A stretch of DNA of 64,000 bases from Rhynchopus sp. YZ270_cl-10 (taxonomy: Eukaryota), in assembly GCA_964035575.1 (NCBI GenBank), contig OZ037835.1, forward strand, positions 682,001-746,000. The letters run 5' to 3'. The position numbers and the translations under genes were made by a program. Below, piece after piece: positions 751 to 57,482 of the stretch. Numbering within the stretch: the stretch's first letter is position 1; each line of letters opens with the position of its first letter. The notes under the pieces are model-generated. The model was not told the origin of the DNA, made no database searches, and saw only the letters and a list, made by a program, of their open reading frames with translations.

Positions 751-3381
751 TCAGTGCAGGTGCACAACGTACGGTGCATAAGCCTTCTGCTCCACATAGC
801 CGGCAAGCTCTTCGTACTGTGTGCGTTGGTCCTGAGCGACGGTGTCCAGCAGAGAAGACGCCTTCTCAAAGTCCTGTTTGATGATGTGCTCGAAGACCTC
901 GTTCCACACTGCGTGCGGGTTGTTCACGGCAGACTCCAGCTGGTACATCCACTCCTCATCTGCGCTGCTGCACAGCCCACGTACGGTAAACACGGTCTGT
1001 GCCTTCTCGCTCAGCTTCTCGTACAGCATCGCACCAGCACAACGCAGTACCACCTGTCCCTCCGCCTCACGCGAAATGTTCTGGTCAACCACACCAGGAA
1101 AGTTACGCTCCTTGTTCCAACGCTCCATCACAACCACCCACGACATGGACTGCGAAAGAATCGACATCTTCTTCATCCCGTTGCAGCCCATGTTCCCGAC
1201 ACGTGCCTCGCCTGTCGTGCACCCGTACGAGATCTTGTGTGCATCCCCAAGTGCTGTTGCCACTTCGTGTGCAGCCTTCACACAGGCAGCACTGTGCGAC
1301 GGCTTCGGAACAAAGGCGTTGAAGGTGGCAAGCATCTTGTCCCCTGCGAACGTGTCGCACACACCTTTGTTGTGCTGCACTGATGACATGATGTGCTCCA
1401 TAATACCACCGTGTGCGGAGAGCACCTCTGCGTCCTTGTGCTTCTTGCAGAAGGCGTGCCACGACACGACGTTCATGTGTGCCAGCGACACCTTCTTCTT
1501 CTTCATCCCTTCCACACGCAGCAGTGCCTTCTGGTGCTGCAGCGTAACACCCGAATTGCGTGACACACGTGAACTCTGTGACCCATGGGAATCCCGGGAC
1601 TTGCCTGACTGCGACTTCATAGTCGAAGATTCCGTCTCTGACACGTACTCTTTCTCACTGTCGTTGACAAGCACACTCTGCGGCATGTAGTTCCGGTACT
1701 CCACCAGGTTCGCCACCATGGTAACAAAGCTGCGCTGCATCATCCCCACTTCACTCAGCTGCGACACTGCACGGCCCGTGTCCACAGCCTCCAGGTCCAT
1801 CACAGCCACACTTGCCATCTCACTCCCAAGCTTCAGCAGAGGGGACGTGATGTAGCGTGTGAACACAACAGCAATGGCCAGGAGTACCGTGATCGCAACA
1901 GCCGTGACAACCACCATCACAATAACCGCATCCTCCTTCTGTGCGTCTGCAGAGGACAGATCTGATGCCACCTTCGCACGGATTGCATTCGTCGACGCAT
2001 CAATTGTCTCCATCACAGACACCCTCGGCACAAGAAGGTTCGCAAAAAATGTAATCGTTTTGTGTTGAATTGTCGTTGCCACTGTCCAGAACTCCGTGCC
2101 GTTCGAGTCAGACCACTTCACGAACGACGTCTTTGTCATCTCCACAAGGTCTCTGTAGTTCTGTGGGTGTGTGAACACAAACCGCCCATGCTCTGCAATC
2201 ACTGAGGGGATGTGCGACGTGGCGTCTTCCGTTGAGTGGTTCGTTACGTTGAAGCTCATTGCCATATCAATTGGAACGCCATTGAAATTTGTTCGAGTTT
2301 CGAACGACAGATGCCTTCCTCTGTTGTACGCGACAAGCGTTCCCGTTGAGTCAGATACAGGGTCGTGCTCCACCAGGTACAGCGACGCGTCGGCTGGGAG
2401 CAGCTGTGACCTCACTGCCTCTGATATCCCTTCACCTGTCACCATCGCAGTAACGACACCCACACGCTTGCCCTGCTTGGGGTGCATCGTGTACATCTCT
2501 GGGTGGGTGAAGGTGTAGCTCAACTCCCAGTTCATGAAGTCGACTGTAATCTGCGAAGTTGAGTAGATCAGTGTCTCCGCAGGGAACATGGGTGGGTCAT
2601 CGGCACCCAGGTCCCACATCTGTTTGCCACGGGATATCTGGAGTGTCGTGCCCACTCCCTCACTTGAATCTAGGGTAAATACGCAGAAACCACGCCACTG
2701 TCCCTTGTTGTAGTCCGGCATCCAGTTGCACGGCATATCCGGGAACCTTCTGTCGCCTCTGTTCGTGGCTTCCCCGTAGGACACCCAGTCAGATATGCCC
2801 ACCGCCCCTGTCACATGGTCACGCATCTCGTACACCATGCGGACCTGGGTGCCGTTCGTCGGAGGGACACCACTGGCAGAGTTCACGTCCCTGAACCCCA
2901 TCCGCGAGCCCCACCCTGCAAACCCGTCCCCCCTCTTCCACGGAACAGGATGTGCTGGGGACCACGGGTACGTTTCGTACGAAATGAATTCCAATCCAGA
3001 CGTCGTCCCAGCACGATAAGCGGACATCAAAGCAGGGCGCATAACCGCATCCGCAAAGGCGGGGCTCGTGCTGACGTTTGGGTGGTGCGAGCTCGCAAGG
3101 TTGGCCATGGATAGCACCAGCTGCTCAGGCACCTTCAGGTACTCCTTCACTGCAGTGTCCACGTTTCCAAGGACGGAGCGCAGGTAGCGCGACGAGACCG
3201 TTTCGATGTCTGCCGTACCACTGTCGAGACACATCCCAAAGCCCTCGTCACCTGTGTCACGTGCCTTCTCCAGAAGGTCGTCCCATGTTGTCAGAGTGAA
3301 GCCACCGATGATCGCACCTGTCGACAGAATCAGCACCACACACAGCAGCACTGTCAGCGACTGGATGCTGCATGTCGCCAT
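751..3381 (-). CDS. Receptor-type nucleotidyl-cyclase-like membrane protein, copy 1 (2 TM, extracellular domain, HAMP-like linker, degenerate class III cyclase)
   Basis: Intact 876-aa ORF; TM1 LTVLLCVVLILSTGAIIGG, TM2 VIVMVVVTAVAITVLLAIAVVF, HAMP-like ITSPLLKL...SEVGMM...FVTMV, cyclase motifs FAGDKMLATFN and GCTTGEARVGNMG. Confidence 0.9.
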   Translation of the reverse strand: MATCSIQSLTVLLCVVLILSTGAIIGGFTLTTWDDLLEKARDTGDEGFGMCLDSGTADIETVSSRYLRSVLGNVDTAVKEYLKVPEQLVLSMANLASSHHPNVSTSPAFADAVMRPALMSAYRAGTTSGLEFISYETYPWSPAHPVPWKRGDGFAGWGSRMGFRDVNSASGVPPTNGTQVRMVYEMRDHVTGAVGISDWVSYGEATNRGDRRFPDMPCNWMPDYNKGQWRGFCVFTLDSSEGVGTTLQISRGKQMWDLGADDPPMFPAETLIYSTSQITVDFMNWELSYTFTHPEMYTMHPKQGKRVGVVTAMVTGEGISEAVRSQLLPADASLYLVEHDPVSDSTGTLVAYNRGRHLSFETRTNFNGVPIDMAMSFNVTNHSTEDATSHIPSVIAEHGRFVFTHPQNYRDLVEMTKTSFVKWSDSNGTEFWTVATTIQHKTITFFANLLVPRVSVMETIDASTNAIRAKVASDLSSADAQKEDAVIVMVVVTAVAITVLLAIAVVFTRYITSPLLKLGSEMASVAVMDLEAVDTGRAVSQLSEVGMMQRSFVTMVANLVEYRNYMPQSVLVNDSEKEYVSETESSTMKSQSGKSRDSHGSQSSRVSRNSGVTLQHQKALLRVEGMKKKKVSLAHMNVVSWHAFCKKHKDAEVLSAHGGIMEHIMSSVQHNKGVCDTFAGDKMLATFNAFVPKPSHSAACVKAAHEVATALGDAHKISYGCTTGEARVGNMGCNGMKKMSILSQSMSWVVVMERWNKERNFPGVVDQNISREAEGQVVLRCAGAMLYEKLSEKAQTVFTVRGLCSSADEEWMYQLESAVNNPHAVWNEVFEHIIKQDFEKASSLLDTVAQDQRTQYEELAGYVEQKAYAPYVVHLH

Positions 3382-3599
3382 TGTTCAGAGGTGTACAGAA
3401 AGGGAAGACTGTGCTGGGGATGTGTGTGTGGTGTGGTGTGTGGGTTCTCTTTGTGATGACTTATGAGGAAAACGTTCTTTTTTGTATTGCAGCGAATATA
3501 GCCGCTGAGGTATTGTGGTGATGAGGGGACTGGGGAAGCACAGCACAAATGATCCTGATGGCGGTAACAACCAACGTGGACAAAAGATTGGGAGGTTGG

Positions 3600-19417: not shown

Positions 19418-22030
19418 TCAGTGCAGGTGCACAACGTACGGTGCATAAGCCTTCTGCTCCACATAGCCGGCAAGCTCTTCGTACTGTGTGCGTTGGTCCT
19501 GAGCGACGGTGTCCAGCAGAGAAGACGCCTTCTCAAAGTCCTGTTTGATGATGAGCTCGAAGACCTCGTTCCACATAGCATGAGGGTTGTTCACGGCAGA
19601 CTCCAGCTGGTACATCCACTCCTCATCTGCGCTGCTGCACAGCCCACGTACGGTAAACACGGTCTGTGCCTTCTCGCTCAGCTTCTCGTACAGCATCGCA
19701 CCAGCACAACGCAGTACCACCTGTCCCTCCGCCTCACGCGAAACAGCACGGTCAACGACACCAGTCAGGTTACGCTCCTTGTTCCAACGCTCCATCACAA
19801 CCACCCACGACATGGACTGCGAAAGAATCGACATCTTCTTCATCCCGTTGCAGCCCATGTTCCCGACACGTGCCTCGCCTGTCGTGCACCCGTACGAGAT
19901 CTTGTGCACATCACCAAGTGCTGTTGCTGCTTCGTGTGCAGCCTTCACACAGGCAGCACTGTGCGACGGCTTCGGAACAAAGGCGTTGAAGGTGGCAAGC
20001 ATCTTGTCCCCTGCGAACGTGTCGCACACACCTTTGTTGTGCTGCACTGCTGACATGATGTGCTCCACAATACCACCGTGTGCGGAGAGCACCTCTGCGT
20101 CCTTGTGCTTCTTGCAGAAGGCGTGCCACGACACGACGTTCATGTGTGCCAGCGACACCTTCTTCTTCTTCATCCCTTCCACACGCAGCAGTGCCTTCTG
20201 GTTCTGCATCATATCAGCTGAACTGCGTGATGCATGTGAAGTAGACATGCCTGACTGCGACTTCGTATCCTGTGTAGAATCCGTCTCTGACACTTCCTCT
20301 TTGTCACTGTCGTTGACAAGCACACTCTGCGGCATGTAGTTCCGGTACTCCACCAGGTTCGCCACCATGGTAACAAAGCTGCGCTGCATCATCCCCACTT
20401 CACTCAGCTGCGACACTGCACGGCCCGTGTCCACAGCCTCCAGGTCCATCACAGCCACACTTGCCATCTCACTCCCAAGCTTCAGCAGAGGGGACGTGAT
20501 GTAGCGTGTGAACACAACAGCAATGGCCAGGAGTACCGTGATCGCAACAGCCGTGACAACCACCATCACAATAACCGCATCCTCCTTCTGTGCGTCTGCA
20601 GAGGACAGATCTGATGCCACCTTCGCACGGATTGCATTCGTCGACGCATCAATTGTCTCCATCACAGACACCCTCGGCACAAGAAGGTTCGCAAAAAATG
20701 TAATCGTTTTGTGTTGAATTGTCGTTGCCACTGTCCAGAACTCCGTGCCGTTCGAGTCAGACCACTTCACGAACGACGTCTTTGTCATCTCCACAAGGTC
20801 TCTGTAGTTCTGTGGGTGTGTGAACACAAACCGCCCATGCTCTGCAATCACTGAGGGGATGTGCGACGTGGCGTCTTCCATTGAGTGGTTCGTGATGTTG
20901 AAGCTCACTGAAAACGGAGCTAGAACGCCTACGGCATTCAGACGCGTTTCGAACCACAGATGCCTCCCTCTGTTGTATGCGACAAGCGTTCCTGTTGTGT
21001 CTGACACACGATCGTGCTCCACCAGGTACAGCGACGTGGCCTCTGGGAGCAGCTGTGCACGCACTGCATTGCTTACCCCTAGCCCGGTCACCACAGCTCT
21101 GACGACACCCACACGCTTGCCCTGCTTAGGGTGCATCATGTACATCTCTGGGTGGGTGAAGGTGTAGCTCAGCTCCCAGTATATAATGCTCCATGACACC
21201 ATCACGTTTGTGTAGATCAGTGTCTCCGTGGGGTACATGGGTGGGTCATCGGCACCCAGGTTGTAGATCTGCTTGCCGCGTGCTAGCATGCCTAAAGAGC
21301 CAGGGGGTTCACTCATAGCAAAAGGAGCCATGCAGAGACCGCGTATCTCGTTCTTGTTGTAGTCCGGCCTGTGATTGCACGGCTGATGCGGGAACCTTCT
21401 GTCGCCTCTGTTTGTGGCTTCCCCAAAGGATACCCAGTCAGATATACCCACCGCCCCCGTCACATGGTCACGCATCTCGTACACCAGGAGGACCTGGGAG
21501 CCGTTCGTAGGAGGGACACCACTCGCAGAGTTCACATCCCTGAACCCCATCCGTGAGCCCCACCCTGCAAACCCGTCCCCCGCCTTCCACGGAACAGGAT
21601 GTGCTTGTGACCACGGGTACGTTTCGTACCCCATGAATTCCAATCCAGACGTCGCCCCAGCACGGAAAGCGGAGACAAAAGCAGGACGCATAACCGTATC
21701 CCCAAAGGCGGGGCTCGTGCTGACGTTTGGGTGGTGCGCCTTCGCAAGGTTGGCCATGGATAGCACCAGCTGCTCAGGCACCTTCAGGTACTCCTTCACC
21801 GCCGTGTCCACGTTGCCAAGGACGGAGCGCAGGTAGCGCGACGAGACCGTTTCGATGTCTGCCGTACCACTGTCGAGACACATCCCAAAGCCCTCGTCAC
21901 CTGTGTCACGTGCCTTCTCCAGAAGGTCGTCCCATGTTGTCAGAGTGAAGCCACCGATGATCGCACCTGTCGACAGAATCAGCACCACACACAGCAGCAC
22001 TGTCAGCGACTGGATGCTGCATGTCGCCAT
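19418..22030 (-). CDS. Receptor-type cyclase-like protein, copy 2
   Basis: Intact 870-aa paralogue of copy 1. Confidence 0.9.
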   Translation of the reverse strand: MATCSIQSLTVLLCVVLILSTGAIIGGFTLTTWDDLLEKARDTGDEGFGMCLDSGTADIETVSSRYLRSVLGNVDTAVKEYLKVPEQLVLSMANLAKAHHPNVSTSPAFGDTVMRPAFVSAFRAGATSGLEFMGYETYPWSQAHPVPWKAGDGFAGWGSRMGFRDVNSASGVPPTNGSQVLLVYEMRDHVTGAVGISDWVSFGEATNRGDRRFPHQPCNHRPDYNKNEIRGLCMAPFAMSEPPGSLGMLARGKQIYNLGADDPPMYPTETLIYTNVMVSWSIIYWELSYTFTHPEMYMMHPKQGKRVGVVRAVVTGLGVSNAVRAQLLPEATSLYLVEHDRVSDTTGTLVAYNRGRHLWFETRLNAVGVLAPFSVSFNITNHSMEDATSHIPSVIAEHGRFVFTHPQNYRDLVEMTKTSFVKWSDSNGTEFWTVATTIQHKTITFFANLLVPRVSVMETIDASTNAIRAKVASDLSSADAQKEDAVIVMVVVTAVAITVLLAIAVVFTRYITSPLLKLGSEMASVAVMDLEAVDTGRAVSQLSEVGMMQRSFVTMVANLVEYRNYMPQSVLVNDSDKEEVSETDSTQDTKSQSGMSTSHASRSSADMMQNQKALLRVEGMKKKKVSLAHMNVVSWHAFCKKHKDAEVLSAHGGIVEHIMSAVQHNKGVCDTFAGDKMLATFNAFVPKPSHSAACVKAAHEAATALGDVHKISYGCTTGEARVGNMGCNGMKKMSILSQSMSWVVVMERWNKERNLTGVVDRAVSREAEGQVVLRCAGAMLYEKLSEKAQTVFTVRGLCSSADEEWMYQLESAVNNPHAMWNEVFELIIKQDFEKASSLLDTVAQDQRTQYEELAGYVEQKAYAPYVVHLH

Positions 22031-22148
22031 TGTTCTGAGGTGTACAGGAAGGGGAGAGAGTGTACGTCTGGGGATGTGTGTGTGGTGTGGGTGAAATCAG
22101 TTCTGGCTACTTCCTGTGTGTAGTACACAGAAGACATAGTCAATATAC

Positions 22149-37227: not shown

Positions 37228-37230
37228 CCC

Positions 37231-38604: not shown

Positions 38605-38740
38605 GGTACTGGGTACTGGGTACTGGGTACTGGGTACTGGGTACTGGGTACTGGGTACTGGGTACTGGGTACTGGGTACTGGGTACTGGGTACTGGGTAC
38701 TGGGTACTGGGTACTGGGTACTGGGTACTGGGTACTGGGT
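38605..38740. repeat. (GGGTACT)n, ~19 copies
   Basis: Direct reading. Confidence 0.95.
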
Positions 38741-39265
38741 AATGGCTAATGGCTAATGGCTACCCGTGCCACACTGTGCCACACCCTGCCATACCGTGCC
38801 ATACCCGTGCCAAACCGTGCCATACCCTGCCATACCCTGCCACACCCTGCCATACCGTGCCATACCGTGCCACACCCGTGCCAAACCGTGCCACACCCTG
38901 CCATACCCTGCCACACCCGTGCCAAACCGTGCCAAACCCTGCCATACCCTGCCACACCGTGCCAAACCGTGCCATACCCTGCCATACCCTACCATACCCT
39001 ACCATACCCTGCCCTACCCTTACTAACCCTCTCAAACCCCCCCAAATCTGCCCAAATCCTCTCAAACCCTCCCAAACCCAAATGTCCGTGACGTCAACTA
39101 GCCTAATTTTGGGATAATACAAGCTGTTTGACAAAAGAAACGCGAGCTTATTGCTAATGTTCAGAAAAATGACCCTAGACACTTTCGTGCAGAGGTGGGC
39201 ACCGTTGGACTTCAAGGTGACGGGATGGCAAGACTCAAACTGCGGTATCAAGAACAACACCATTA

Positions 39266-41065: not shown

Positions 41066-41253
41066 TTGTTTGTTGTTTGTTGTTTGTTGTTTGTTGTTTG
41101 TTGTTTGTTGTTTGTTGTTTGTTGTTTGTTGTTTGTTGTTTGTTGTTTGTTGTTTGTTGTTTGTTGTTTGTTGTTTGTTGTTTGTTGTTTGTTGTTTGTT
41201 GTTTGTTGTTTGTTGTTTGTTGTTTGTTGTTTGTTGTTTGTTGTTTGTTGTTT
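41066..41253. repeat. (TTGTTGT)n, ~27 copies
   Basis: Direct reading; unexpanded seed at the homologous sites ~50905 and ~4432. Confidence 0.95.
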
Positions 41254-43883
41254 ATACAACGTCTACGCAAACAAAAGCAACCTCAGTGCAGGTGCACAAC
41301 GTACGGTGCATAAGCCTTCTGCTCCACATAGCCGGCAAGCTCTTCGTACTGTGTGCGTTGGTCCTGAGCGACGGTGTCCAGCAGAGAAGACGCCTTCTCA
41401 AACTCCTGTTTGATGATGAGCTCGAAGACCTCGTTCCACCGAGCATGAGGGTTGTTCACGGCAGACTCCAGCTGGTACATCCACTCCTCATCTGCGCTGC
41501 TGCACAGCCCACGTACGGTAAACACGGTCTGTGCCTTCTCGCTCAGCTTCTCGTACAGCATCGCACCAGCACAACGCAGTACCACCTGTCCCTCCGCCTC
41601 ACGCAACACCTTCTGGTCAACGACACCAGGCAGCTCGTTGTACTCCTTGTTCCAACGCTCCATCACAACCACCCACGACATGGACTGCGAAAGAATCGAC
41701 ATCTTCTTCATCCCGTTGCAGCCCATGTTCCCGACACGTGCCTCGCCTGTCGTGCACCCATACGAGATCTTGTGTGCATCCCCAAGTGCTGTTGCCACTT
41801 CGTGTGCAGCCTTCACACAGGCAGCACTGTGCGACGGCTTCGGAACAAAGGCGTTGAAGGTGGCAAGCATCTTGTCCCCTGCGAACGTGTCGCACACACC
41901 TTTGTTGTGCTGCACTGATGACATGATGTGCTCCACAATACCACCGTGTGCGGAGAGCACCTCTGCGTCCTTGTGCTTCTTGCAGAAGGCGTGCCACGAC
42001 ACGACGTTCATGTGTGCCAGCGACACCTTCTTCTTCTTCATCCCTTCCACACGCAGCAGTGCCTTCTGGTTCTGCATCGCAGCAACTGAATTGCGTGACA
42101 CACGTGATCCAGCAGAAGAGGAAAAACCAGACCTCCGCGACTTCATAGTCGAAGATGCCTCTGACACGGATGCTTCCTTATCATTGTCACTGTCGTTGAC
42201 AAGCACACTCTGCGGCATGTAGTTCCGGTACTCCACCAGGTTCGCCACCATGGTAACAAAGCTGCACTGCATCATCCCGACTTCACTCAGCTGCGACACT
42301 GCACGGCCCGTGTCCACAGCCTCCAGGTCCATCACAGCCACACTTGCCATCTCACTCCCAAGCTTCAGCAGAGGGGACGTGATGTAGCGTGTGAACACAA
42401 CAGCAATGGCAAGAAGTCCTATGACCGCAACAGCCGTCACAACCACCATCACAATCACCGCATCCTCCTTCTGTGCGTCTGCAGAGGACAGATCTGATGC
42501 CACCTTCGCACGGATTGCATTCGTCGACGCATCAATTGTCTCCATCACAGACACCCTCGGCACAAGAAGGTTCGCGAATAATTTGATCGTTTTGTGTTGA
42601 ATTGTCGTTGCCACTGTCCAGAACTCCGTGCCGTTCGAGTCAGACCACTTCAGGAAGGAGTCCTCTGTCATCTCCACAAGGTCTCTGTAGTTCTGTGGGT
42701 GTGTGAACACAAACCGCCCATGCTCTGCAATCACTGAGGGGATGTGCCACGTCGCGTCTTCCATTGAGTGGTTCGTTATGTTGAATCCCACTGACATATC
42801 AATTGGAACGCCCTGGTTACTCACGCGATTTTCGAACCACATATGCCTTCCTCTGTTGTACGCGACAAGCGTTCCCGTTGAGTCAGCTGCAGGGTCGTGC
42901 TCCACCAGGTACAGCGACGTGCCGGCTGGGAGCAGCTGTGATCTCACTGCCTCTGATACCCCGGTCCCGGTCACAAACGCGGTAACGACACCCATACGCT
43001 TGCCCTGCTTGGGGTGCATCATGTACATCTCTGGGTGGGTGAAGGTGTAGCTCAGCTCCCAGTTCATGAAGTCGAATGTAATCTGCAGAGATGAGTAGAT
43101 CAGTGTCTCCGCAGGGAACATGGGTGGGTCATCGGCACCCAGGTAGTAGATCTGTTTGCCACGGGATATCGCGAGTGTCGTGCCCGGGGGCTCGCTTGAG
43201 TCTAAGGGAAATGCGCACCCACCACGCCACTCCCCCTTGTTGTAGTCCGGCCTCCAGTTGCACGGCAGATGTGGGAACTTTCTGTCGCCTCTATCGGTGG
43301 CTTCCGCTAAGGAGACCCAGTCAGATATACCCACCGCCCCCGTCACATGGTCACGCATCTCGTACACCAGGAGGACCTGGGAGCCGTTCGTCGGAGCTAT
43401 ACCCATCGCAGAGTTCACATCCCTGAACCCCATCCGCGAGCCCCACCCTGCAAACCCGTCCCCCCTCTTCCACGGAACAGGATGTGCTGGGGACCACGGG
43501 TACGTTTCGTACGAAATGTATTCCAATCCGGACGTCGTCCCAGCACGATAAGCGGACATCAAAGCAGGGCGCATAACCGTATCCGCAAAGGCGGGGCTCG
43601 TGCTGACGTTTGGGTGGTGCGCCTTCGCAAGGTTAGCCAGAGTTACCACGAGTTGCTCAGGAACCTTCAGGTACTCCTTCACCGCAGTGTCCACGTTGCC
43701 AAGGACGGAGCGCAGGTAGCGCGACGAGACCGTTTCGATGTCTGCCGTACCACTGTCGAGACACATCCCAAAGCCCTCGTCACCTGTGTCACGTGCCTTC
43801 TCCAGAAGGTCGTCCCATGTTGACAGAGTGAAGCCACCGATGATCGCACCTGTCGACAGAATCAGCACCACACACAGCAGCAC

Positions 43884-46331
43884 AACGTACATGTCCCCCA
43901 AAGAGCAGAAAAACCTCACGACAAAGTTCACAGCGGCGGTGTGGACGGGTACCAACAGAAGGGCGCCAGAAGTTGTACTGCACGTCCTGCAACACGGACA
44001 TCGCATGGACCCTTCCATGGTCTTGCACCTCCACAGGCTAAGAGCATGGGCCAAACAAATGAGAAAGGCAAGTTGCAGACCCCTCGCTACAGCCGCTTGG
44101 CAGAATAGAGACTCTCTGACATGTGGCCCATTCCATCTCATCTCGCTCACCCTGCGAGCACTCGGCTGGACATGGCAGTCTCCAACGTCGATTAGCTTTG
44201 TAAACGAGGCAGGTGACGCTGCTACCTTGGAGCTGAGTACGCTCACAGACAAGCAAGTGGCAGGAATGGAGGCAGAAGCCCGCCACTTCCTCCGTACGGA
44301 GATACTCTCAAAAATGGCTAACAGGCGCCCCGACTTCGAAGGCCTGCAGCATGGTGTCGATGGCCACACAACCAGGCACCTGTTAGAGGACTCTGCTAAC
44401 GAGTTAACCGGCTACCAGAAAGGCATTCTCAGATCAGTCATCGCGGGTGCGGTGAACACCACGGGCCGCTCAGGCCTCAGCACAACATCTTGCCCCTATT
44501 GCGTGTCTGGCGAACGAGAGACGGTTGAGCATCTTTGGTGGGACTGCCAGGCGTGGTCGTCGGTGCGAGCCAGGCACAGCATCACATCGCAGGATCGAAC
44601 CAATTGGCCAAATTGCCTGTCGATATGTGGGGTGGCCCCTGCCTTCCGACAAGGGGACAATGCGCTACCGCAATACTCGGACGACAGACGCTTCATCGTC
44701 AGGAGTCTCCAACGCTTCTTTGTGGAGGTGGTAAAAGAGCGACAGATCCGTGCCGACCGCCCCGAAGAATCTGCCAGACACCACCGGCTGCAGAGCTTTC
44801 CGTGGGGCTGGTCCTCACCCCAGCCCAGACAGGTACATCTCCCAGTCTACAGCTACGAGAGCGTCCGTCAACAGTGGAAACACAACGAAGACCTTTGGCA
44901 TGCACTAAACTCCTGGGTGCGAGGACTTCAGTGGGCCCACGTCGGGTCCGAACACTCAATCAGCCTCATCGAGCTGGCAGTGGACTTTGAGCTCACCACA
45001 GGAATGCCGCTCCCAGACGTTGGCAGCCGCCGCTATCCGCAGTTCAAAGCCTCTACCTCGTCGTGCACGGTTAGGGACCATATCGCGGACCACAGCGGGG
45101 TGGAAATGTTCTTTGACGGCGGAGCAAGACAGAACAAAACTGTCTTCGCGAGGGCTGGGGCAGGAGCGGTGGTATATGTGGATGGTGTCAAGAGCGCATC
45201 GGTGGCCACCCCACTTCCCTCAGCCAGAAGCAACAACGTGGCGGAGTACGAAGGAGTCATCAGTGGCCTCCGCCTCCTCAACGAACTCCCCTCTGAGCTG
45301 CAAGGCCCGGTCACCATCAGCGGAGACTCCAAGCTGATTGTGGACCAGCTCCGGGGGGTAGCTGACTGCAACGATTTCCTCAAACCGCTGTTCCTCGTGG
45401 CTAAAGAACTGATCAGAGAGGTTCAACCCCGTTTCACCCTGGGGTTCCGCCACATCGCGCGAGAGCGAAACAAGGACGCTGACGCTCTCAGCAACCAGGC
45501 AATGGATGAGGTGGAGAACCAGAAGCAAGCAGAACTTGCCGCTGCCTCCTCGGAACGCGACACCTTCCTGCAAAGCGCGTTGGCCAAGTCACTCTCACTG
45601 GGCGAGCTGATGCAGACCTTTGCGAAGGTGTACAAACCGCAGTCCTGGATGTACGGCCACTACACCAACGTCACTAGCCTTACTGCCATCGGAGGTTCGG
45701 TGACCAGTGGTGTGAGCAAACGAGCAGTTCTCAACAGCAAAACTGAGGAGGTACTGCGCCACCTACAGTCGCACATAGCAGCCTTTGCAGGGAACCGCCG
45801 CTCCCTCTTGTACGAGGAGACCCAGGCTTGGGCAGCCCAGTTCCGGCCGCAAGAGCATTACGCTGATGACTGGACTGAAGCCTCCGCAGGATGGCGAGGC
45901 AGAGCGACTGAAGCCAGAGCTGCAGGACGGGCCCGCCCACCTCGCACGGCCCCTCCAGACGCCAGAAAGTGCGCCAAAACCTTGTCTTGTCTGACCCACG
46001 GCAAAGTGCGATGTAACTCGTGCAAGACGCTGCGAGCCGCTCCAGAAACCTGCTGCAGCCTACACCACACAGAAGGCGATGGCCGCGCCATTGTGATGGA
46101 CTTCTGCACGAAACATAGACTCACGAGATGTGGGGCATGCTTGCTAGACAAGAAATCATTGGCCCAGTGCTGCGGAACGTGCCACACACGCCACATCAAT
46201 AACAGCACGTCAGCACGAGGCACACTCCCCCTACATCACAGGCAAGACCCCGCGGGGTCTTCGCAGGTGACGTAGCCCCCCCCACACCTAAGGGCCATAT
46301 TCTGCGCAAGAATTACCCTCACTAGGCATTA
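43884..46331 (+). mobile_element. 5'-truncated non-LTR retrotransposon
   Basis: 15-bp TSD CACACACAGCAGCAC at 43869-83 and 46332-46; ORF open from the junction; no poly(A) tail. Confidence 0.9.
43885..46275 (+). CDS. C-terminal part of retrotransposon ORF: CCHC zinc finger, RNase H, Cys/His-rich tail
   Basis: CPYC...ETVEHLWWDC; MFFDGG...SNNVAEY...GDSKLIV...HIARERNKDADAL; no RT core present. Confidence 0.88.
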   Translation, partial: TYMSPKEQKNLTTKFTAAVWTGTNRRAPEVVLHVLQHGHRMDPSMVLHLHRLRAWAKQMRKASCRPLATAAWQNRDSLTCGPFHLISLTLRALGWTWQSPTSISFVNEAGDAATLELSTLTDKQVAGMEAEARHFLRTEILSKMANRRPDFEGLQHGVDGHTTRHLLEDSANELTGYQKGILRSVIAGAVNTTGRSGLSTTSCPYCVSGERETVEHLWWDCQAWSSVRARHSITSQDRTNWPNCLSICGVAPAFRQGDNALPQYSDDRRFIVRSLQRFFVEVVKERQIRADRPEESARHHRLQSFPWGWSSPQPRQVHLPVYSYESVRQQWKHNEDLWHALNSWVRGLQWAHVGSEHSISLIELAVDFELTTGMPLPDVGSRRYPQFKASTSSCTVRDHIADHSGVEMFFDGGARQNKTVFARAGAGAVVYVDGVKSASVATPLPSARSNNVAEYEGVISGLRLLNELPSELQGPVTISGDSKLIVDQLRGVADCNDFLKPLFLVAKELIREVQPRFTLGFRHIARERNKDADALSNQAMDEVENQKQAELAAASSERDTFLQSALAKSLSLGELMQTFAKVYKPQSWMYGHYTNVTSLTAIGGSVTSGVSKRAVLNSKTEEVLRHLQSHIAAFAGNRRSLLYEETQAWAAQFRPQEHYADDWTEASAGWRGRATEARAAGRARPPRTAPPDARKCAKTLSCLTHGKVRCNSCKTLRAAPETCCSLHHTEGDGRAIVMDFCTKHRLTRCGACLLDKKSLAQCCGTCHTRHINNSTSARGTLPLHHRQDPAGSSQVT

Positions 46332-46449
46332 CACACACAGCAGCACTGTCAGCGACTGGATGCTGCATGTCGCCATTGTTCAGAGGTATCCAGAAAGGGA
46401 AGACTGTGCTGGGGATGTGTGTGTGGTGTGGTGTGTGGGTTCTCTTTGT

Positions 46450-51082: not shown

Positions 51083-53713
51083 TCAGTGCAGGTGCACAAC
51101 GTACGGTGCATAAGCCTTCTGCTCCACATAGCCGGTAAGCTCTTCGTACTGTGTGCGTTGGTCCTGAGCGACGGTGTCCAGCAGAGAAGACGCCTTCTCA
51201 AACTCCTGTTTGATGATGAGCTCGAAGACCTCGTTCCACCGAGCATGAGGGTTGTTCACGGCAGACTCCAGCTGGTACATCCACTCCTCATCTGCGCTGC
51301 TGCACAGCCCACGTACGGTAAACACGGTCTGTGCCTTCTCGCTCAGCTTGTTGTACAGCATCGCGCCAGAACAACGCAGTACCACCTGTCCCTCCGCCTC
51401 ACGCGACACCTTCTGGTCAACCACACCAGGCAGCTCGTTGTACTCCTTGTTCCAACGCTCCATCACAACCACCCACGACATGGACTGCGAAAGAATCGAC
51501 ATCTTCTTCATCCCGTTGCAGCCCATGTTCCCGACACGTGCCTCGCCTGTCGTGCACCCGTACGAGATCTTGTGTGCATCCCCAAGTGCTGTTGCCACTT
51601 CGTGTGCAGCCTTCACACAGGCAGCACTGTGCGACGGCTTCGGAACAAAGGCGTTGAAGGTGGCAAGCATCTTGTCCCCTGCGAACGTGTCGCACACACC
51701 TTTGTTGTGCTGCACTGATGACATGATGTGCTCCATAATACCACCGTGTGCGGAGAGCACCTCTGCGTCCTTGTGCTTCTTGCAGAAGGCGTGCCACGAT
51801 ACGACGTTCATGTGTGCCAGCGACACCTTCTTCTTCTTCATCCCTTCCACACGCAGCAGTGCCTTCTGGTTCTGCATCGCAGCAACTGAATTGCGTGACG
51901 CACGTGATCCAGCAGAAGAGGACATACCAGACCTCCGCGACTTCATAGTCGAAGATGCCTCTGACACGGATGCTTCTTTATCATTATCACTGTCGTTGAC
52001 AAGCACACTCTGCGGCATGTAGTTCCGGTACTCCACCAGGTTCGCCACCATGGTAACAAAGCTGCACTGCATCATCCCCACTTCACTCAGCTGCGACACT
52101 GCACGGCCCGTGTCCACAGCCTCCAGGTCCATCACAGCCACACTTGCCATCTCACTCCCAAGCTTCAGCAGAGGGGACGTGATGTAGCGTGTGAACACAA
52201 CAGCAATGGCCAGGAGTACCGTGATCGCAATGACCGTGACAACCACCATCACAATCACCGCATCCTCCTTCTGTGTGTCTGCAGAGGACAGATCTGATGC
52301 CACCTTCGCACGGATTGCATTCGTCGACGCATCAATCGAGTCCATCACAGACACCCTCGGCACAAGAAGGTTCGCAAAAAATGTAATCGTTTTGTGTTGA
52401 ATTGTCGATGTGATTGTCCAGAACTCCGTGCCGTTCGAGTCAGACCACTTCAGGAAGGAGTCCTCTGTCATCTCCACAAGGTCTCTGTAGTTCTGTGGGT
52501 GTGTGAACACAAACCGCCCATGCTCTGCAATCACTGAGGGGATGTGCCACGTCGCGTCTTCCATTGAGTGATTCGTGATGTTAAATGCCACCGCCATATC
52601 AATTGGAACGCCCTGGTTACTCACGCGATTTTCGAACCACATATGCCTTCCTCTGTTGTACGCGACAAGCGTTCCTGTTGTGTCAGAGGCACCGTCGTAC
52701 TCCACCAGGTACAGCGACGTGCCGGCTGGGAGCAGCTGTGATCTCACTGCCTCTGATACCCCGGTCCCGGTCACAAACGCGGTAACGACGCCCATACGCT
52801 TGCCCTGCTTGGGGTGCATCGTGTACATCTCTGGGTGGGTGAAGGTGTAGCTCAGCTCCCAGTTCATGAAGTCGAATGTAATCTGCAGACTTGAGTAGAT
52901 CAGTGTCTCCGCAGGGAACATGGGTGGGTCATCGGCACCCAAGTTGTAGATCTGTTTGCCACGGGATATCGCGAGTGTCGTGCCCGGGGGCTCGCTTAAG
53001 TCGAAGGGAAATGCGCACCCACCACGCCACTCCCCCTTGTTGTAGTCCGGCCTGAAGTTGCACGGCAGATGTGGGAACCTTCTGTCACCTCTATCAGTGG
53101 CTTCCGCTAAAGAGACCCAGTCAGATATGCCCACCGCCCCCGTCACATGGTCACGCATCTCGTACACCACGAGGACCTGGGAGCCGTTCGTAGGAGCTAT
53201 ACCCATCGCAGGGTTGATATCCCTGAACGCAATCCGTGAGCCCCACCCTGCAAACCCGTCACCCCTCTTCCACGGAACAGGATGTGCTGGGGACCATGGG
53301 TACATTTCGTACGAAATGTATTCCAATCCAGACGTCGTCCCAGCACGATACGCGGAGATCATTGCAGGGCGCATAACCGTATCCCCAAAGGTGGGGCTCG
53401 TGCTGACGTTTGGGTGGTGCGCCTTCGCAAGGTTGGCCAGAGTTACCACGAGTTGCTCAGGAACCTTCAGGTACTCCTTCACTGCAGTGTCCACGTTGCC
53501 AAGGACGGAGCGCAGGTAGCGCGACGAGACCGTTTCGATGTCCGCCGTACCACTGTCGAGACACATCCCAAAGCCCTCATCACCTGTGTCACGTGCCTTC
53601 TCCAGAAGGTCGTCCCATGTTGTCAGAGTGAAGCCACCGATGATCGCACCTGTCGACAGAATCAGCACCACACACAGCAGCACTGTCAGCGACTGGATGC
53701 TGCATGTCGCCAT
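51083..53713 (-). CDS. Receptor-type cyclase-like protein, copy 5
   Basis: Intact 876-aa paralogue, closest to copy 4. Confidence 0.9.
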   Translation of the reverse strand: MATCSIQSLTVLLCVVLILSTGAIIGGFTLTTWDDLLEKARDTGDEGFGMCLDSGTADIETVSSRYLRSVLGNVDTAVKEYLKVPEQLVVTLANLAKAHHPNVSTSPTFGDTVMRPAMISAYRAGTTSGLEYISYEMYPWSPAHPVPWKRGDGFAGWGSRIAFRDINPAMGIAPTNGSQVLVVYEMRDHVTGAVGISDWVSLAEATDRGDRRFPHLPCNFRPDYNKGEWRGGCAFPFDLSEPPGTTLAISRGKQIYNLGADDPPMFPAETLIYSSLQITFDFMNWELSYTFTHPEMYTMHPKQGKRMGVVTAFVTGTGVSEAVRSQLLPAGTSLYLVEYDGASDTTGTLVAYNRGRHMWFENRVSNQGVPIDMAVAFNITNHSMEDATWHIPSVIAEHGRFVFTHPQNYRDLVEMTEDSFLKWSDSNGTEFWTITSTIQHKTITFFANLLVPRVSVMDSIDASTNAIRAKVASDLSSADTQKEDAVIVMVVVTVIAITVLLAIAVVFTRYITSPLLKLGSEMASVAVMDLEAVDTGRAVSQLSEVGMMQCSFVTMVANLVEYRNYMPQSVLVNDSDNDKEASVSEASSTMKSRRSGMSSSAGSRASRNSVAAMQNQKALLRVEGMKKKKVSLAHMNVVSWHAFCKKHKDAEVLSAHGGIMEHIMSSVQHNKGVCDTFAGDKMLATFNAFVPKPSHSAACVKAAHEVATALGDAHKISYGCTTGEARVGNMGCNGMKKMSILSQSMSWVVVMERWNKEYNELPGVVDQKVSREAEGQVVLRCSGAMLYNKLSEKAQTVFTVRGLCSSADEEWMYQLESAVNNPHARWNEVFELIIKQEFEKASSLLDTVAQDQRTQYEELTGYVEQKAYAPYVVHLH

Positions 53714-53769
53714 TGTTCAGAGGTATCCAGAAAGGGGAGACTGTGCTGGGGATGTGTGTGTGGTGTGGT

Positions 53770-54238: not shown

Positions 54239-54869
54239 GTGTGGTGTGATGACTTATGAGGAAAACGTTCTTTTTTGTAGTGCAGCGAAGATAGCTGAGG
54301 TATTGTGGTGATGAGGGGGACTGGGGAAGCACAGCACAAACAAATATTCCTGGTGGTGGTAACAACCAACGTTGACAAAGAAGTGCTTAGCAATAACAAC
54401 AAAGGTAAGTGCTACGAGCTCGTGTAATGTTGAGGACTACCTATCATAAGATGAATCCAGGCAGAGTCGGGAATGTACACACTAGACACTTTCGTGCTAG
54501 AGGTGGACACCGTTGCACTTCAAGGTGACGGTGTGGCAAGACTCAAACTGCGGTATCAAGAACAACACCATTAACAACACATTTCTTTCGTGTGTAACAA
54601 ACAACTATGACAACACCGCTTGCCGACAGAGCAAGGAGCAAATAATACATTAGGCGTGGAAACGCTTCAGACACATGTGACGGTGGGTCACTCATTAATA
54701 TCACATTTCCATCCAAAAGTGCCCGGAATAAGTGACCAGTATAAAACGGTTATTCTTCCTCACTTCAAAATTTAGCTTTTCTCCTTCTCAGAAAAAAGAG
54801 AAGATGTAGCATTTGCATTGTTCGCATCAGAAGCGTTTGTCAGAATTAAAAAGAAAGCACAAAGCAACC

Positions 54870-57482
54870 TCAGTGCAGGTGTACAACGTACGGTGCATAA
54901 GCCTTCTGCTCCACATAGCCGGCAAGCTCTTCGTAAGGTGTGCGTTGGTCCTGAGCGACGGTGTCCAGCAGAGAAGACGCCTTCTCAAAGTCCTGTTTGA
55001 TGATGTGCTCGAAGACCTCGTTCCACAGTGTGTGCGGGTTGTTTGCGGCAGACTCCAGCTGGTACATCCACTCCTCATCTGCGCTGCTGCACAGCCCACG
55101 TACGGTAAACACGGTCTGTGCCTTCTCGCTCAGCTTCTCGTACAACATCGAGCCAGCACAACGCAGTACCACCTGTCCCTCCGCCTCACGCGAAATGTTC
55201 TGGTCAACCACACCAGGGAGGTCACGCTTCTTGTTCCAACGCTCCATCACAACCACCCACGACATGGACTGCGAAAGAATCGACATCTTCTTCATCCCGT
55301 TGCAGCCCATGTTCCCGACACGTGCCTCGCCTGTCGTGCACCCGTACGAGATCTTGTGTGCATCGCCAAGTGCTGTTGCCACTTCGTGTGCAGCCTTTAC
55401 ACAAGCAGCACTGTGCGATGGCTTCGGAACAAAGGCATTGAAGGTGGCAAGCATCTTGTCCCCTGCGAACGTGTCGCACACACCTTTGTTGTGCTGCACT
55501 GCTGACATGATGTGCTCCACAATACCACCGTGTGCGGAGAGCACCTCTGCGTCCTTGTGCTTCTTGCAGAAGGCGTGCCACGATACGACGTTCATGTGTG
55601 CCAGCGACACCTTCTTCTTCTTCATCCCTTCCACACGCAGCAGTGCCTTCTGGTTCTGCATCGCAACAACTGAACTCTGTGACGTACCTGAAGGGGACAT
55701 GCCTGACTTCTGCGACTTCATAGTCGAAGATTCCTCTGTCACGGATGCTTCTTTATCACTGTCATTAACAAGCACACTCTGCGGCATGTAGTTCCGGTAC
55801 TCCACCAGGTTCGCCACCATGGTAACAAAGCTGCACTGCATCATCCCCACTTCACTCAGCTGCGACACTGCACGGCCCGTGTCCACAGCCTCCAGGTCCA
55901 TCACAGCCACACTTGCCATCTCACTCCCAAGCTTCAGCAGAGGGGACGTGATGTAGCGTGTGAACACAACAGCAATGGCAAGAAGTCCTATGACCGCAAC
56001 AGCCGTCACAACCACCATCACAATCACCGCATCCTCCTTCTGTGCGTCTGCAGAGGACAGATCTGATGCCACCTTCGCACGGATTGCATTCGTCGACGCA
56101 TCAATTGTCTCCATCACAGACACCCTCGGCACAAGAAGGTTCGCGAATAATTTGATCGTTTTGTGTTGAATTGTCGTTGCCACTGTCCAGAACTCCGTGC
56201 CGTTCGAGTCAGACCACTTCAGGAAGGAGTCCTCTGTCATCTCCACAAGGTCTCTGTAGTTCTGTGGGTGTGTGAACACAAACCGCCCATGCTCTGCAAT
56301 CACTGAGGGGATGTGCGACGTCGCGTCTTCCATTGAGTGGTTCGTGATGTTAAAGCCGTACGCGACTATGGTAGGAGTACCCCAGGGAGTTACAGAAGGC
56401 TCCACCCGTATATGCCTACCTCTGTTGTATGCGACAAGCGTTCCTGTTGAGTCAGATACAGGGTCGTGCTCCACCAGGTACAGCGACGTGCCGGCTGGGA
56501 GCAGCTGTGCACGCACTGCCTTCTTTATCCCGTCTCCAGTCACCGTTGCCGTCATAACACCCACACGCTTGCCCTGCTTGGGGTGCATCGTGTACATCTC
56601 TGGGTGGGTGAAGGTGTAGCTCAGCTCCCAGTACATCATGTCCCACTGCACCCGAACGTTTGTGTAGATCAGTGTCTCCGTGGGGTGCAGGGGTGGGTCA
56701 TTGGCACCCAGGTTGTAGATCTGCTTGCCACGGTTTAGCTGGCCTGGCGTGCCCACAGGCTCGCTTGCATCCATGGGAAATGCGCACCCACCACGCCACT
56801 GGCCCTTGTTGTAGTCTGGGTAGAAGTTGCACGGCAGATGTGGGAACCTTCTGTCACCTCTATCGGTGGCTTCCGCTAAGGAGACCCAGTCAGATATACC
56901 CACCGCCCCCGTCACATGGTCACGCATCTCGTACACCATGAGGACCTGGGAGCCGTTCGTCGGAGGGACACCAATGGCAGAGTTCACATCCCTGAACGCC
57001 ATCCGCGAGCCCCACCCTGCAAACCCGTCCCCCCTCTTCCACGGAACAGGATGTGCTGGGGACCACGGGTACGTTTCGTACCTAATCAATTCCAATCCGG
57101 ACGTCGTCCCAGCACGATAAGCGGAGATCAAAGCAGGGCGCATAACCGCATCCGCAAAGGCGGGGCTCGTGCTGACGTTTGGGTGGTGCGCCTTCGCAAG
57201 GTTGGCCATGGATAGTACCAGCTGCTCAGGCACCTTCAGGTACTCCTTCACTGCAGTGTCCACGTTGCCAAGGACGGAGCGCAGGTAGCGCGACGAGACC
57301 GTTTCGATGTCCGCTGTACCACTGTCGAGACACATCCCAAAGCCCTCGTCACCTGTGTCACGTGCCTTCTCCAGAAGGTCGTCCCATGTTGTCAGAGTGA
57401 AGCCACCGATGATCGCACCTGTCGACAGAATCAGCACCACACACAGCAGCACTGTCAGCGACTGGATGCTGCATGTCGCCAT
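54870..57482 (-). CDS. Receptor-type cyclase-like protein, copy 6
   Basis: Intact 870-aa paralogue. Confidence 0.9.
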   Translation of the reverse strand: MATCSIQSLTVLLCVVLILSTGAIIGGFTLTTWDDLLEKARDTGDEGFGMCLDSGTADIETVSSRYLRSVLGNVDTAVKEYLKVPEQLVLSMANLAKAHHPNVSTSPAFADAVMRPALISAYRAGTTSGLELIRYETYPWSPAHPVPWKRGDGFAGWGSRMAFRDVNSAIGVPPTNGSQVLMVYEMRDHVTGAVGISDWVSLAEATDRGDRRFPHLPCNFYPDYNKGQWRGGCAFPMDASEPVGTPGQLNRGKQIYNLGANDPPLHPTETLIYTNVRVQWDMMYWELSYTFTHPEMYTMHPKQGKRVGVMTATVTGDGIKKAVRAQLLPAGTSLYLVEHDPVSDSTGTLVAYNRGRHIRVEPSVTPWGTPTIVAYGFNITNHSMEDATSHIPSVIAEHGRFVFTHPQNYRDLVEMTEDSFLKWSDSNGTEFWTVATTIQHKTIKLFANLLVPRVSVMETIDASTNAIRAKVASDLSSADAQKEDAVIVMVVVTAVAVIGLLAIAVVFTRYITSPLLKLGSEMASVAVMDLEAVDTGRAVSQLSEVGMMQCSFVTMVANLVEYRNYMPQSVLVNDSDKEASVTEESSTMKSQKSGMSPSGTSQSSVVAMQNQKALLRVEGMKKKKVSLAHMNVVSWHAFCKKHKDAEVLSAHGGIVEHIMSAVQHNKGVCDTFAGDKMLATFNAFVPKPSHSAACVKAAHEVATALGDAHKISYGCTTGEARVGNMGCNGMKKMSILSQSMSWVVVMERWNKKRDLPGVVDQNISREAEGQVVLRCAGSMLYEKLSEKAQTVFTVRGLCSSADEEWMYQLESAANNPHTLWNEVFEHIIKQDFEKASSLLDTVAQDQRTPYEELAGYVEQKAYAPYVVHLH

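What the first reader, a model, noticed from the sequence alone, without database searches (positions are those of the whole stretch)
751..57482. Tandem array of six receptors with constant framework and hypervariable extracellular segments
Seen: the N-terminal ~85 aa, HAMP-like region and cyclase-like domain are nearly invariant, while three extracellular segments differ strongly between copies. HV1: FCVFTLDSSEGVGTTLQIS / LCMAPFAMSEPPGSLGMLA / VCVFSMDQSEPVGTPGQIA / GCAFPMDASEPVGTPGQLN. HV2: STSQITVDFMN / TNVMVSWSIIY / STSQVEWDFMH / TNVRVQWDMMY. HV3: LSFETRTNFNGVPIDMAMS / LWFETRLNAVGVLAPFSVS / MWFENRVSNQGVPIDMSVG / IRVEPSVTPWGTPTIVAYG. Two Cys near HV1 are fixed. Established: TM-sensor-TM-HAMP-output is the layout of bacterial Cache-type sensors and differs from trypanosome ESAG4-type receptor cyclases. 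Inference: a diversifying ligand-recognition repertoire (chemosensing or prey recognition) in a protist.
Basis: partly seen in the sequence, partly recalled or inferred. Interest (0 to 1): 0.85.

Follow-up and report, generated by a model that had tools for sequence, protein, structure and literature searches.

The report
Plankton chemoreceptor array with dead cyclase
Six near-identical genes of a likely diplonemid marine protist encode membrane receptors whose predicted bacterial-type ligand pocket differs from copy to copy while their cyclase-shaped output domain lacks the usual catalytic residues, so they likely form part of a large chemical-sensing repertoire that would signal without making cAMP itself.

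Summary
In detail: six intronless same-strand paralogues (87-93% identical to copy 1), with the quoted segments present. Named relatives are diplonemid and prokinetoplastid proteins. 65 close clusters lie on 25 contig sizes, 28 on one. The predicted ectodomain is a dCache fold (Z 18.6 to PctD). Variation concentrates in the membrane-distal module, alternates along strands and maps weakly to dCache pocket positions; HV3 is a hairpin in the proximal module. Three corrections. (1) The class III cyclase fold (Z 21) lacks four of six canonical catalytic residues in 23 of 23 sampled relatives and carries its own EWxY motif (218 of 225). (2) Positive selection is not established: dS rises with dN (omega 0.93), gene conversion is strong, and the site-model signal is borderline against recombination nulls. 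(3) The cytosolic linker varies as much, and copy 4 is interrupted by a LINE piece. One close paralogue carries an intact cyclase. Best reading: a chemosensory receptor repertoire with non-catalytic output. Ligands, expression and output are untested.

The parts
751..3381 (-). Receptor copy 1 (876 aa): TM1 ~8-30, dCache ectodomain 34-484, TM2 485-509, HAMP-like 510-563, variable linker 576-617, pseudo-cyclase 624-806, EEWMYQLE 809-816, helical tail
1930..3282 (-). Copy 1 ectodomain, predicted double Cache fold with long stalk helix and C218/C233 pair
   Evidence: pLDDT 92.4, pTM 0.86; Z 18.6, rmsd 3.4, 269 aligned to PctD 7prq
2632..2688 (-). HV1 of copy 1 (residues 232-250), leading into the helix equivalent to the dCache Y-x4-R-x-W-Y segment
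   Evidence: mapping weak (E 0.0014)
2530..2562 (-). HV2 of copy 1 (274-284), around the position equivalent to PctA Y144
2254..2310 (-). HV3 of copy 1 (358-376), predicted beta-hairpin inserted in the membrane-proximal module
   Evidence: strands 358-364 and 370-376; entropy 2.24 vs 0.51 for the rest of that module
964..1512 (-). Copy 1 class III cyclase fold with degenerate active site (N637, T677, D681, S740, S747, V751 where canonical enzymes have D, K, D, T/S/D, N, R)
   Evidence: Z 21.2, rmsd 2.1, 180 aligned to CyaB
19418..22030 (-). Receptor copy 2 (870 aa); shares an identical tract of at least 559 nt with copy 1 while differing 27-33% over codons 201-280
33456..36086 (-). Receptor copy 3 (876 aa from the family ATG)
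41283..43883 (-). Receptor copy 4, body; an in-frame ATG at the insertion junction could start it just before TM1
43884..46331 (+). RNase H-bearing non-LTR retroelement piece inserted antisense into copy 4, 15-bp target duplication
   Evidence: Pfam RVT_3 E 6e-10; joint 43868-46332 with 15 shared letters
46332..46376 (-). First ~14 codons of copy 4, cut off by the insertion
51083..53713 (-). Receptor copy 5 (876 aa), 96.5% identical in DNA to copy 4
54870..57482 (-). Receptor copy 6 (870 aa)

Best explanation
The six genes belong to a family of roughly 90 two-membrane-span receptors of a likely diplonemid that would sense different small molecules in a predicted dCache pocket and likely pass the signal through TM2 and a HAMP-like helix pair to a cyclase-shaped domain that is predicted to be catalytically dead and to act as a shape switch. 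Shown: six paralogues, conserved frame, variable distal module, loss of the canonical catalytic residues, a family-specific EWxY motif, and gene conversion. Predicted: the dCache and cyclase folds. Inferred: dimers as in bacterial dCache receptors; ligand binding in the membrane-distal pocket lined by strands 131-134, 161-165, HV1, HV2 and 309-317, perhaps capped by the HV3 hairpin; output by docking a partner protein on the pseudo-cyclase dimer and its EEWMYQLE tail. Gene conversion keeps the signalling frame uniform within an array while old sensor variants persist and are shuffled onto it.
For: dCache fold: best of 48,161 chains is PctD (Z 18.6) and the top 16 rows are chemoreceptor or sensor-kinase ligand-binding domains, Z 14-19; Foldseek agrees; relatives with the same cytosolic domain hit Pfam dCache_1 (P0147 46.4 bits, cut-off 45). 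Two hydrophobic segments, and five N-x-S/T sites between them kept in 42-56 of 56 members. Mean entropy 1.45 in the distal module against 0.51 proximal (without HV3), 0.29 stalk, 0.20 TM2-HAMP (56 members). Positions 309/311/313 vary (2.1/2.9/2.8 bits) and 310/312/314 do not (0.8/1.0/0.7); 313 aligns with the Asp of dCache_1 relatives, which I read as the PctA D173 position (motif from PMC8915833). Catalytic fingerprint D-K-D-(T/S)-N-R in 22 of 23 bacterial rows, but N-x-D-(S/T/N)-x-x in 23 of 23 family rows; N637 in 64 of 65 close and 131 of 146 distant hits. EWxY in 218 of 225 family proteins, 0 of 23 bacterial, 0 of 3 intact eukaryotic cyclase fusions. Cyclase-like region under purifying selection, omega 0.24. 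Gene conversion: neighbour incompatibility 0.406 vs 0.527 +/- 0.011, 0 of 2000 permutations as low; framework and sensor trees of 57 proteins reject each other (AU p < 1e-60). Full-length relatives come from diplonemid transcriptome assemblies.
Against: No ligand, localisation, expression of these copies or partner was shown. Pfam gives no dCache or cyclase hit for the window proteins and HAMP only at E 0.02, below cut-off; the HAMP-like part has pLDDT 59-76 in the monomer model. Pocket mapping upstream of residue 300 is weak (hhalign probability 18%, E 0.0014) and no coordinates were available to measure the pocket. Omega in HV1-3 is not above 1 (0.93; pN-pS interval -0.13 to +0.08), and the cytosolic linker is just as divergent, so part of the pattern may be simple escape from conversion. 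Nearest neighbours lie on the same contig for 33 of 40 frameworks but also for 29 of 40 sensor regions, so the array effect is only moderately stronger in the frame. The conserved family-specific residues could form a non-canonical active site.
Confidence: 0.55

Rival explanations
1. The dead-cyclase receptors work as ligand-choosing subunits in mixed dimers with rarer paralogues that carry the same frame and an intact cyclase, switching that enzyme on or holding it off, so that many sensors share few catalytic partners.
For: P0065 has this ectodomain type, 98% identity in residues 1-88 and 95% in TM2-HAMP to family members, but a canonical cyclase (PF00211 E 5.5e-27) followed by a weakly matching second cyclase-like stretch. 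P0113 and P0189 show the same kind of fusion at greater distance. Trypanosomatid cyclases work as dimers (PMC4534343, passage). Conversion keeps exactly the presumed dimer surfaces uniform.
Against: Only 1 of 65 close clusters has the intact cyclase. Its sensor is 78-84% identical to ordinary members, as expected of a recent domain swap rather than an ancient co-receptor. Neither half of the dead domain's active site is complete, so a mixed dimer would more likely be silenced than activated (established class III chemistry, recalled). It does not explain the EWxY tail.
Confidence: 0.2
2. The domain is an active enzyme with a rebuilt active site, making a cyclic nucleotide or another messenger with its own conserved residues (N637, W641/H642, D681, R/K682, N688, K737/K738, E753/R754).
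For: These positions are strongly conserved over 211 domain hits; one metal-binding Asp and the T/S specificity position remain; some relatives carry the automatic label 'adenylate cyclase'. Leishmania HemAC-Lm is a reported active, unusual cyclase (PMC4534343, passage); whether it belongs to this clade I could not test.
Against: First metal Asp, substrate Lys and the transition-state Asn and Arg are all absent in 23 of 23 rows. The labels are annotations by similarity, not assays.
Confidence: 0.13
3. The HV segments are only islands that escaped gene conversion and drifted; the copies are largely redundant, or recognise large surfaces (prey, host, virus) rather than small solutes.
For: dS rises with dN in HV1-3 (0.55 vs 0.066 in the frame); the cytosolic linker behaves alike; the positive-selection signal is lost with 18 blocks (2dl 1.75); one of six copies is interrupted by a retroelement; HV3 is an exposed-type hairpin.
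Against: Variation alternates along single strands, one face free and the other fixed, which a block that merely escaped conversion would not give; no stop or frameshift in the HV segments of six copies; sensor classes recur on different contigs.
Confidence: 0.12

Closest known systems
Bacterial Cache-superfamily receptor adenylate cyclases (dCache_1-HAMP-Guanylate_cyc, e.g. the Legionella protein named in PMC8915833; CHASE2-cyclases)
   Same: Same order TM-Cache-TM-(HAMP)-class III fold-helical tail; P0227 has dCache_1 plus PF00211; the non-family hits of the domain profile are CHASE2 or dCache cyclases, those with names bacterial.
   Different: Eukaryotic; catalytic residues lost; EWxY motif gained; ectodomain about 450 aa against 250-310 aa, with a Cys pair and an inserted hairpin; present as about 90 recombining paralogues.
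Bacterial dCache chemoreceptor ligand-binding domains (PctD, Tlp1, Tlp3, McpX, PctA)
   Same: Predicted fold, Z 15-19; variable positions map to the distal pocket.
   Different: No MCP signalling domain; amino-acid-binding motif absent (0 of 56); 9-15% sequence identity.
Trypanosomatid receptor adenylate cyclases (ESAG4/GRESAG4, RAC-A/B)
   Same: Large euglenozoan surface-receptor family with variable ectodomain, class III domain and unknown ligands (PMC4534343 and PMC7719234, passages).
   Different: Those have one TM and an active cyclase; these have two TMs, a dCache sensor, a HAMP-like part and a dead-looking domain from a separate clade (SH-aLRT 100, quick tree).
Diplonemid 'adenylate cyclase' orthogroups OG0000349 and OG0000004 (PMC10161547, supplement 5)
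   Same: Tabulated large diplonemid families annotated as adenylate cyclase: OG0000349 has 1/23/80/42 members in Dpap/Sspe/Rhum/Hpha and none outside diplonemids. This family may be among them.
   Different: Listed only by automatic name; I saw no description of sensor fold, degenerate site or arrays in the passages read; which orthogroup holds this family was not determined.
Eukaryotic dCache_1 proteins (alpha2delta, CACHD1, protist VWA-dCache)
   Same: dCache fold in a eukaryote, including Euglenozoa (PMC8915833, passages).
   Different: That paper reports a VWA insertion in all eukaryotic dCache_1 proteins it found; the model here shows none, and these match only at Z about 8.

Membership tests
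dCache (double Cache) sensor domain | Long N-terminal helix plus two tandem PAS-like modules between two TM helices | tested here: met
   Model pLDDT 92.4; Z 18.6, rmsd 3.4, 269 aligned to PctD; two hydrophobic segments. Rests on a predicted structure.
dCache_1 (PF02743) | Pfam profile score at or above the gathering cut-off | tested here: not met
   No hit for the six window proteins; among 38 relatives scanned, P0147 passes (46.4 vs 45) and five more hit below cut-off.
dCache_1AA amino-acid sensors | Y121/R126/W128...Y144...D173 motif | tested here: not met
   R-x-W at the mapped place in 0 of 56 and D at 313 in 0 of 56; R or K at 253 in 52 of 56. Upstream register uncertain.
HAMP domain | Two amphipathic helices directly after TM2; Pfam PF00672 | tested here: inconclusive
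   E 0.02, 15.6 bits against cut-off 25 in 3 of 6 copies; helices predicted to 526 and 543-563 at pLDDT 59-76.
Class III nucleotidyl cyclase | Catalytic-domain fold | tested here: met
   Z 21.2, rmsd 2.1, 180 aligned to CyaB; family profile hits Cya2 at E 7e-15.
Class III nucleotidyl cyclase | Two metal-binding Asp, substrate Lys/Glu plus Asp/Thr/Cys, transition-state Asn and Arg | tested here: not met
   N-T-D-S-S-V in copy 1; first Asp, Lys, Asn and Arg absent in 23 of 23 family rows (one has Glu at the Lys position in two rows), present in 22 of 23 bacterial rows. Roles of the residues recalled from established knowledge.
Class III nucleotidyl cyclase | Measured cyclase activity as a dimer | not testable with these tools
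Trypanosomatid receptor adenylate cyclases (ESAG4 type) | Single TM between a large N-terminal ectodomain and the cyclase | tested here: not met
   Two hydrophobic segments flank the sensor; TM1 could be a cleaved signal, but bacterial relatives share the two-TM layout.
Trypanosomatid receptor adenylate cyclases (ESAG4 type) | Intact cyclase domain | tested here: not met
   Family domains form their own group apart from the three intact eukaryotic domains.
Positively selected recognition repertoires (MHC, R genes) | omega above 1 at binding-site codons | tested here: inconclusive
   Pooled omega 0.93; M2a vs M1a 2dl 18.9/16.6 (4 blocks), 12.4 (9), 1.75 (18); nulls reach the observed value in 2 of 37 and 0 of 11 runs; a framework control gave 7.9 with 5 blocks and 0.3 with 9.
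Concerted-evolution multigene array | Gene conversion tracts and region-specific trees | tested here: met
   Identical tracts up to 559 nt, permutation tests and AU tests; trees.

The most novel reading that the evidence does not exclude
Diplonemids run an undescribed, olfaction-like receptor system built from a bacterial Cache-cyclase: hundreds of ligand-specific sensor subunits with a dead cyclase share one conversion-homogenised dimer frame, swap pocket modules by recombination, and signal combinatorially through a new EEWMY docking module or through rare intact-cyclase partners with the same frame.
Probability: 0.25. Interest if true: 0.85.

Novelty: new variant of a known kind. Interest (0 to 1): 0.62.

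Why it matters
Diplonemids are among the most abundant marine microeukaryotes (PMC10161547, abstract), and how euglenozoans sense chemicals is open: trypanosomatid receptor cyclases have no known ligands (PMC4534343, PMC7719234, passages). This family offers a soluble dCache domain of a type routinely screened for ligands in bacteria, about 90 natural pocket variants on one frame, and a natural chimera with an intact cyclase that could serve as a cAMP reporter for any copy's sensor. The conserved dead cyclase with its own motif, in 1,341 clusters at 50% identity (most not inspected), points to a signalling output that my searches did not find described.

Tried and rejected
No whole genome is held for this window, so the family count rests on protein clusters; that all 25 contig sizes are one assembly was not established. 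Run search: no RNA holder listed; the laid runs cover intergenic DNA and say nothing on expression. Complex prediction of the dead domain with the intact P0065 domain was not available, so no binding claim is tested. The six-copy profile found no solved structure by sequence; the 95-member profile did. ESM Atlas gave feature-only leads (Cache-type and PF00211 clusters, 0.94), not used as evidence. Profile searches with the dead domain returned no named trypanosomatid, euglenid or Naegleria protein, but these searches are word-limited, so HemAC-Lm membership stays open. Positive selection looked significant at first and was downgraded after controls. The copy 4 insertion as a canonical intron was rejected: it begins GT but does not end AG; non-canonical splicing is not excluded. 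The careful cyclase tree did not finish; only the quick tree is quoted and no donor or root is claimed. Top fold matches include quaternary-amine receptors, but a shared fold shows no ligand, so none is proposed from it. Earlier-findings look-ups returned nothing. Ten literature searches showed no paper describing this family; the library lacks most subscription journals, and bioRxiv supplements were closed.
Full report
1. Observation. The window holds six intronless ORFs of one family, all on the minus strand: 751-3381, 19418-22030, 33456-36086, 41283-43883, 51083-53713 and 54870-57482. tblastn finds no seventh copy or fragment in the window. The proteins are 87-93% identical to copy 1, and all quoted HV strings are present. 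The array is loose: the gaps of 1.2-16 kb hold two hAT-type transposase ORFs and long microsatellites. Copy 4 is split after about 14 codons by a 2.45-kb antisense piece of an RNase H-bearing retroelement with a 15-bp target duplication; an in-frame ATG at the junction might still start it just ahead of TM1. Copy-specific stretches over HV1 and HV3 of copy 5 and HV1 of copy 6 recur without differences in contigs of runs from two studies, though one run may be the window's source.

2. Organism and family size. Of 20 relatives looked up, 15 carry a source name: diplonemids (Rhynchopus euleeides, R. humris, Flectonema neradi, Diplonema papillatum DIPPA_17192, Sulcionema specki, Namystynia, Lacrimia, and an 'Hpha' transcript), one prokinetoplastid (Apiculatamorpha spiralis PhF-6) and one unnamed-taxon JGI protein. 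A diplonemid host is therefore an inference from relatives. The first search returned 70 clusters; 65 are at 49% identity or more and hold 89 member sequences (summed by hand), on 25 distinct contig lengths, 28 clusters on one 1.68-Mb contig. The three clusters on the window's contig hold 7 members, so a seventh copy may lie outside the window. That all these contigs are one genome was not shown. A rough hint agrees: in run X5 a contig over TM2-HAMP has depth 319 against 2.6-3.5 for copy-specific pieces; the tool warns that depth is no copy number. The wider superfamily has 1,341 clusters at 50% identity, of which 150 were listed.

3. Anatomy. The full-length model has mean pLDDT 83.6, with only residues 1-4 and 565-621 below 50. 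The ectodomain alone reaches 92.4. Against 48,161 chains its best match is the dCache domain of PctD (Z 18.6, rmsd 3.4, 269 aligned), followed by other chemoreceptor and sensor-kinase domains; Foldseek agrees. Relatives with the same cytosolic domain hit Pfam dCache_1 directly, while the window proteins do not. Two hydrophobic segments flank the domain and five N-glycosylation-type sites between them are kept in 42-56 of 56 members. C218 and C233 are invariant in 95 of 95 sequences and likely form a disulfide. After TM2 come a HAMP-like helix pair (Pfam E 0.02, below cut-off), a disordered Ser-rich linker, a class III cyclase fold (Z 21.2 to CyaB), an EEWMYQLE helix and a short helical tail.

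4. Where the variation sits. In 56 close members (P0001-P0055 and P0057; partial and distant rows left out) mean entropy is 1.45 bits in the membrane-distal module, 0.51 in the proximal module without HV3, 2.24 in HV3, 0.29 in the stalk and 0.20 in TM2-HAMP. Variation alternates along strands: 309/311/313 vary, 310/312/314 do not. Residue 313 aligns with the Asp of dCache_1 relatives, which I read as PctA D173, a pocket residue (PMC8915833, section read). HV1 runs into the equivalent of the R-x-W-Y segment and HV2 covers the Y144 position, but that alignment is weak (E 0.0014). The amino-acid motif itself is absent (0 of 56), though R or K stands at the mapped Arg position in 52 of 56. HV3 is a predicted hairpin in the proximal module; whether it caps the distal pocket could not be measured without coordinates.

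5. The output domain looks dead. At the six canonical positions, 22 of 23 bacterial rows read D-K-D-(T/S)-N-R, while all 23 family rows sampled lack the first Asp, the Lys, the Asn and the Arg; the alignment to Cya2 and CyaB shows the same. The Asp-to-Asn change is in 64 of 65 close and 131 of 146 distant hits. The roles of these residues are recalled from established class III chemistry. Yet the domain is conserved (omega 0.24) and has its own motifs, above all EWxY in 218 of 225 family proteins against 0 of 23 bacterial and 0 of 3 intact eukaryotic fusions. The non-family hits of the domain profile are CHASE2- and dCache-cyclases, bacterial where named, which suggests an old bacterial origin; the quick tree groups the family apart but gives no root. 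One close paralogue, P0065, joins this sensor and frame to an intact cyclase, and P0113 and P0189 do so at greater distance. This suggests the frame can be coupled to a working cyclase.

6. Evolution. In the six copies dN is 0.51 and dS 0.55 in HV1-3 (omega 0.93) against 0.02 and 0.066 in the frame (omega 0.31). Raised dS means these segments are old, not just fast-changing. Gene conversion is strong: copies 1 and 2 share at least 559 identical nucleotides yet differ 27-33% over codons 201-280; 0 of 2000 permutations match the clustering; framework and sensor trees of 57 proteins reject each other. Framework branches within an array are short, while sensor classes recur across contigs; the nearest-neighbour count is only modestly different (33 vs 29 of 40). 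My own site models favoured a class with omega about 4 (2dl 18.9; 16.6 and 12.4), but the signal fell to 1.75 with 18 blocks, a framework control gave 7.9 with 5 blocks, and recombination-only simulations reached the observed value in 2 of 37 and 0 of 11 runs. Positive selection is thus borderline and not established; purifying selection is clearly relaxed at about half of the codons 89-380.

7. Mechanism. Most likely (0.55): dimeric surface chemoreceptors, each binding different small molecules in the distal pocket, with the signal passing through TM2 and HAMP to a non-catalytic cyclase dimer whose EEWMY tail docks a partner. Rivals: mixed dimers with intact-cyclase paralogues (0.2), a rebuilt active site (0.13), neutral or surface-recognition variation (0.12).

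8. Against what is known. It works like bacterial Cache-HAMP-cyclase receptors and resembles trypanosomatid receptor cyclases as a repertoire, but fails the catalytic test for class III enzymes and the single-TM test for ESAG4-type proteins. Papers seen: PMC10161547 (passages; supplement search rows), which notes expanded signal-transduction families and tabulates large 'adenylate cyclase' orthogroups; PMC8915833 (passages and one section); PMC4534343 (passages); PMC7719234 (passages; no mention of diplonemids); PMC7052976 (term search, 'cyclase' 0 times in the main text). Ten searches (listings only unless named above) showed no description of this family; the library is incomplete and unread supplements may bear on this.

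9. Verdict. A real feature and a new variant of a known kind: a large diplonemid dCache receptor family with pocket-focused variation, a conversion-homogenised frame and a conserved dead-looking cyclase. Interest 0.62.

Noticed in passing
window 25981-29657: Intact-looking hAT-type DNA transposon: 21-bp perfect terminal inverted repeats around a 948-aa ORF (26500-29346, minus) with Pfam Dimer_Tnp_hAT and DUF4371.
   Followed up: partly
window 13168-15252: Second, unrelated hAT-like ORF (694 aa, plus; DUF659 and weak Dimer_Tnp_hAT), flanked by GTCTTTTTTG-type repeats at 12911-13039 and 15375-15456.
   Followed up: no
window 46290-46331: The end of the retroelement piece in copy 4 has dozens of CA-rich loose ends in the laid runs and its target duplication is TG-rich, hinting at a LINE that prefers (CA/TG)-rich sites.
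   Followed up: partly
window 43884-43895: The retroelement supplies an in-frame ATG a few codons before the receptor sequence resumes, which could rescue copy 4 with an intact TM1.
   Followed up: partly
about 40 bases upstream of each family ATG (e.g. window 3382-3450): All six copies share a CA-rich tract followed by CCCCAG and a pyrimidine stretch, a candidate spliced-leader acceptor; a stray copy of this 5' region lies at 54245-54405.
   Followed up: no
window 60005-61060: ORF with the end of an ammonium-transporter domain followed by ankyrin repeats, probably the last exon of an Amt-ankyrin fusion.
   Followed up: no
window 62888-64000, 57970-58790, 22145-22249: WD40 repeat ORF running off the window, a broken duplicate and a small fragment.
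   Followed up: no
window 8086-8336, 23097-23683, 36935-37659, 38605-39079, 41065-41253, 48965-49491: Long, nearly perfect 7-, 9- and 262-bp tandem repeats between the receptor genes; the 9-mer array occurs twice in opposite orientation.
   Followed up: no
proteins P0138, P0152, P0164, P0205, P0110: The same dead cyclase module ends 1,600-2,000-aa receptors with PA and Laminin_G_3 domains, or a Patched/sterol-sensing domain, so the output is reused with other sensors.
   Followed up: no
protein P0065 (1.68-Mb contig): Natural chimera: this family's sensor and frame fused to an intact cyclase plus a weakly matching second cyclase-like stretch.
   Followed up: partly
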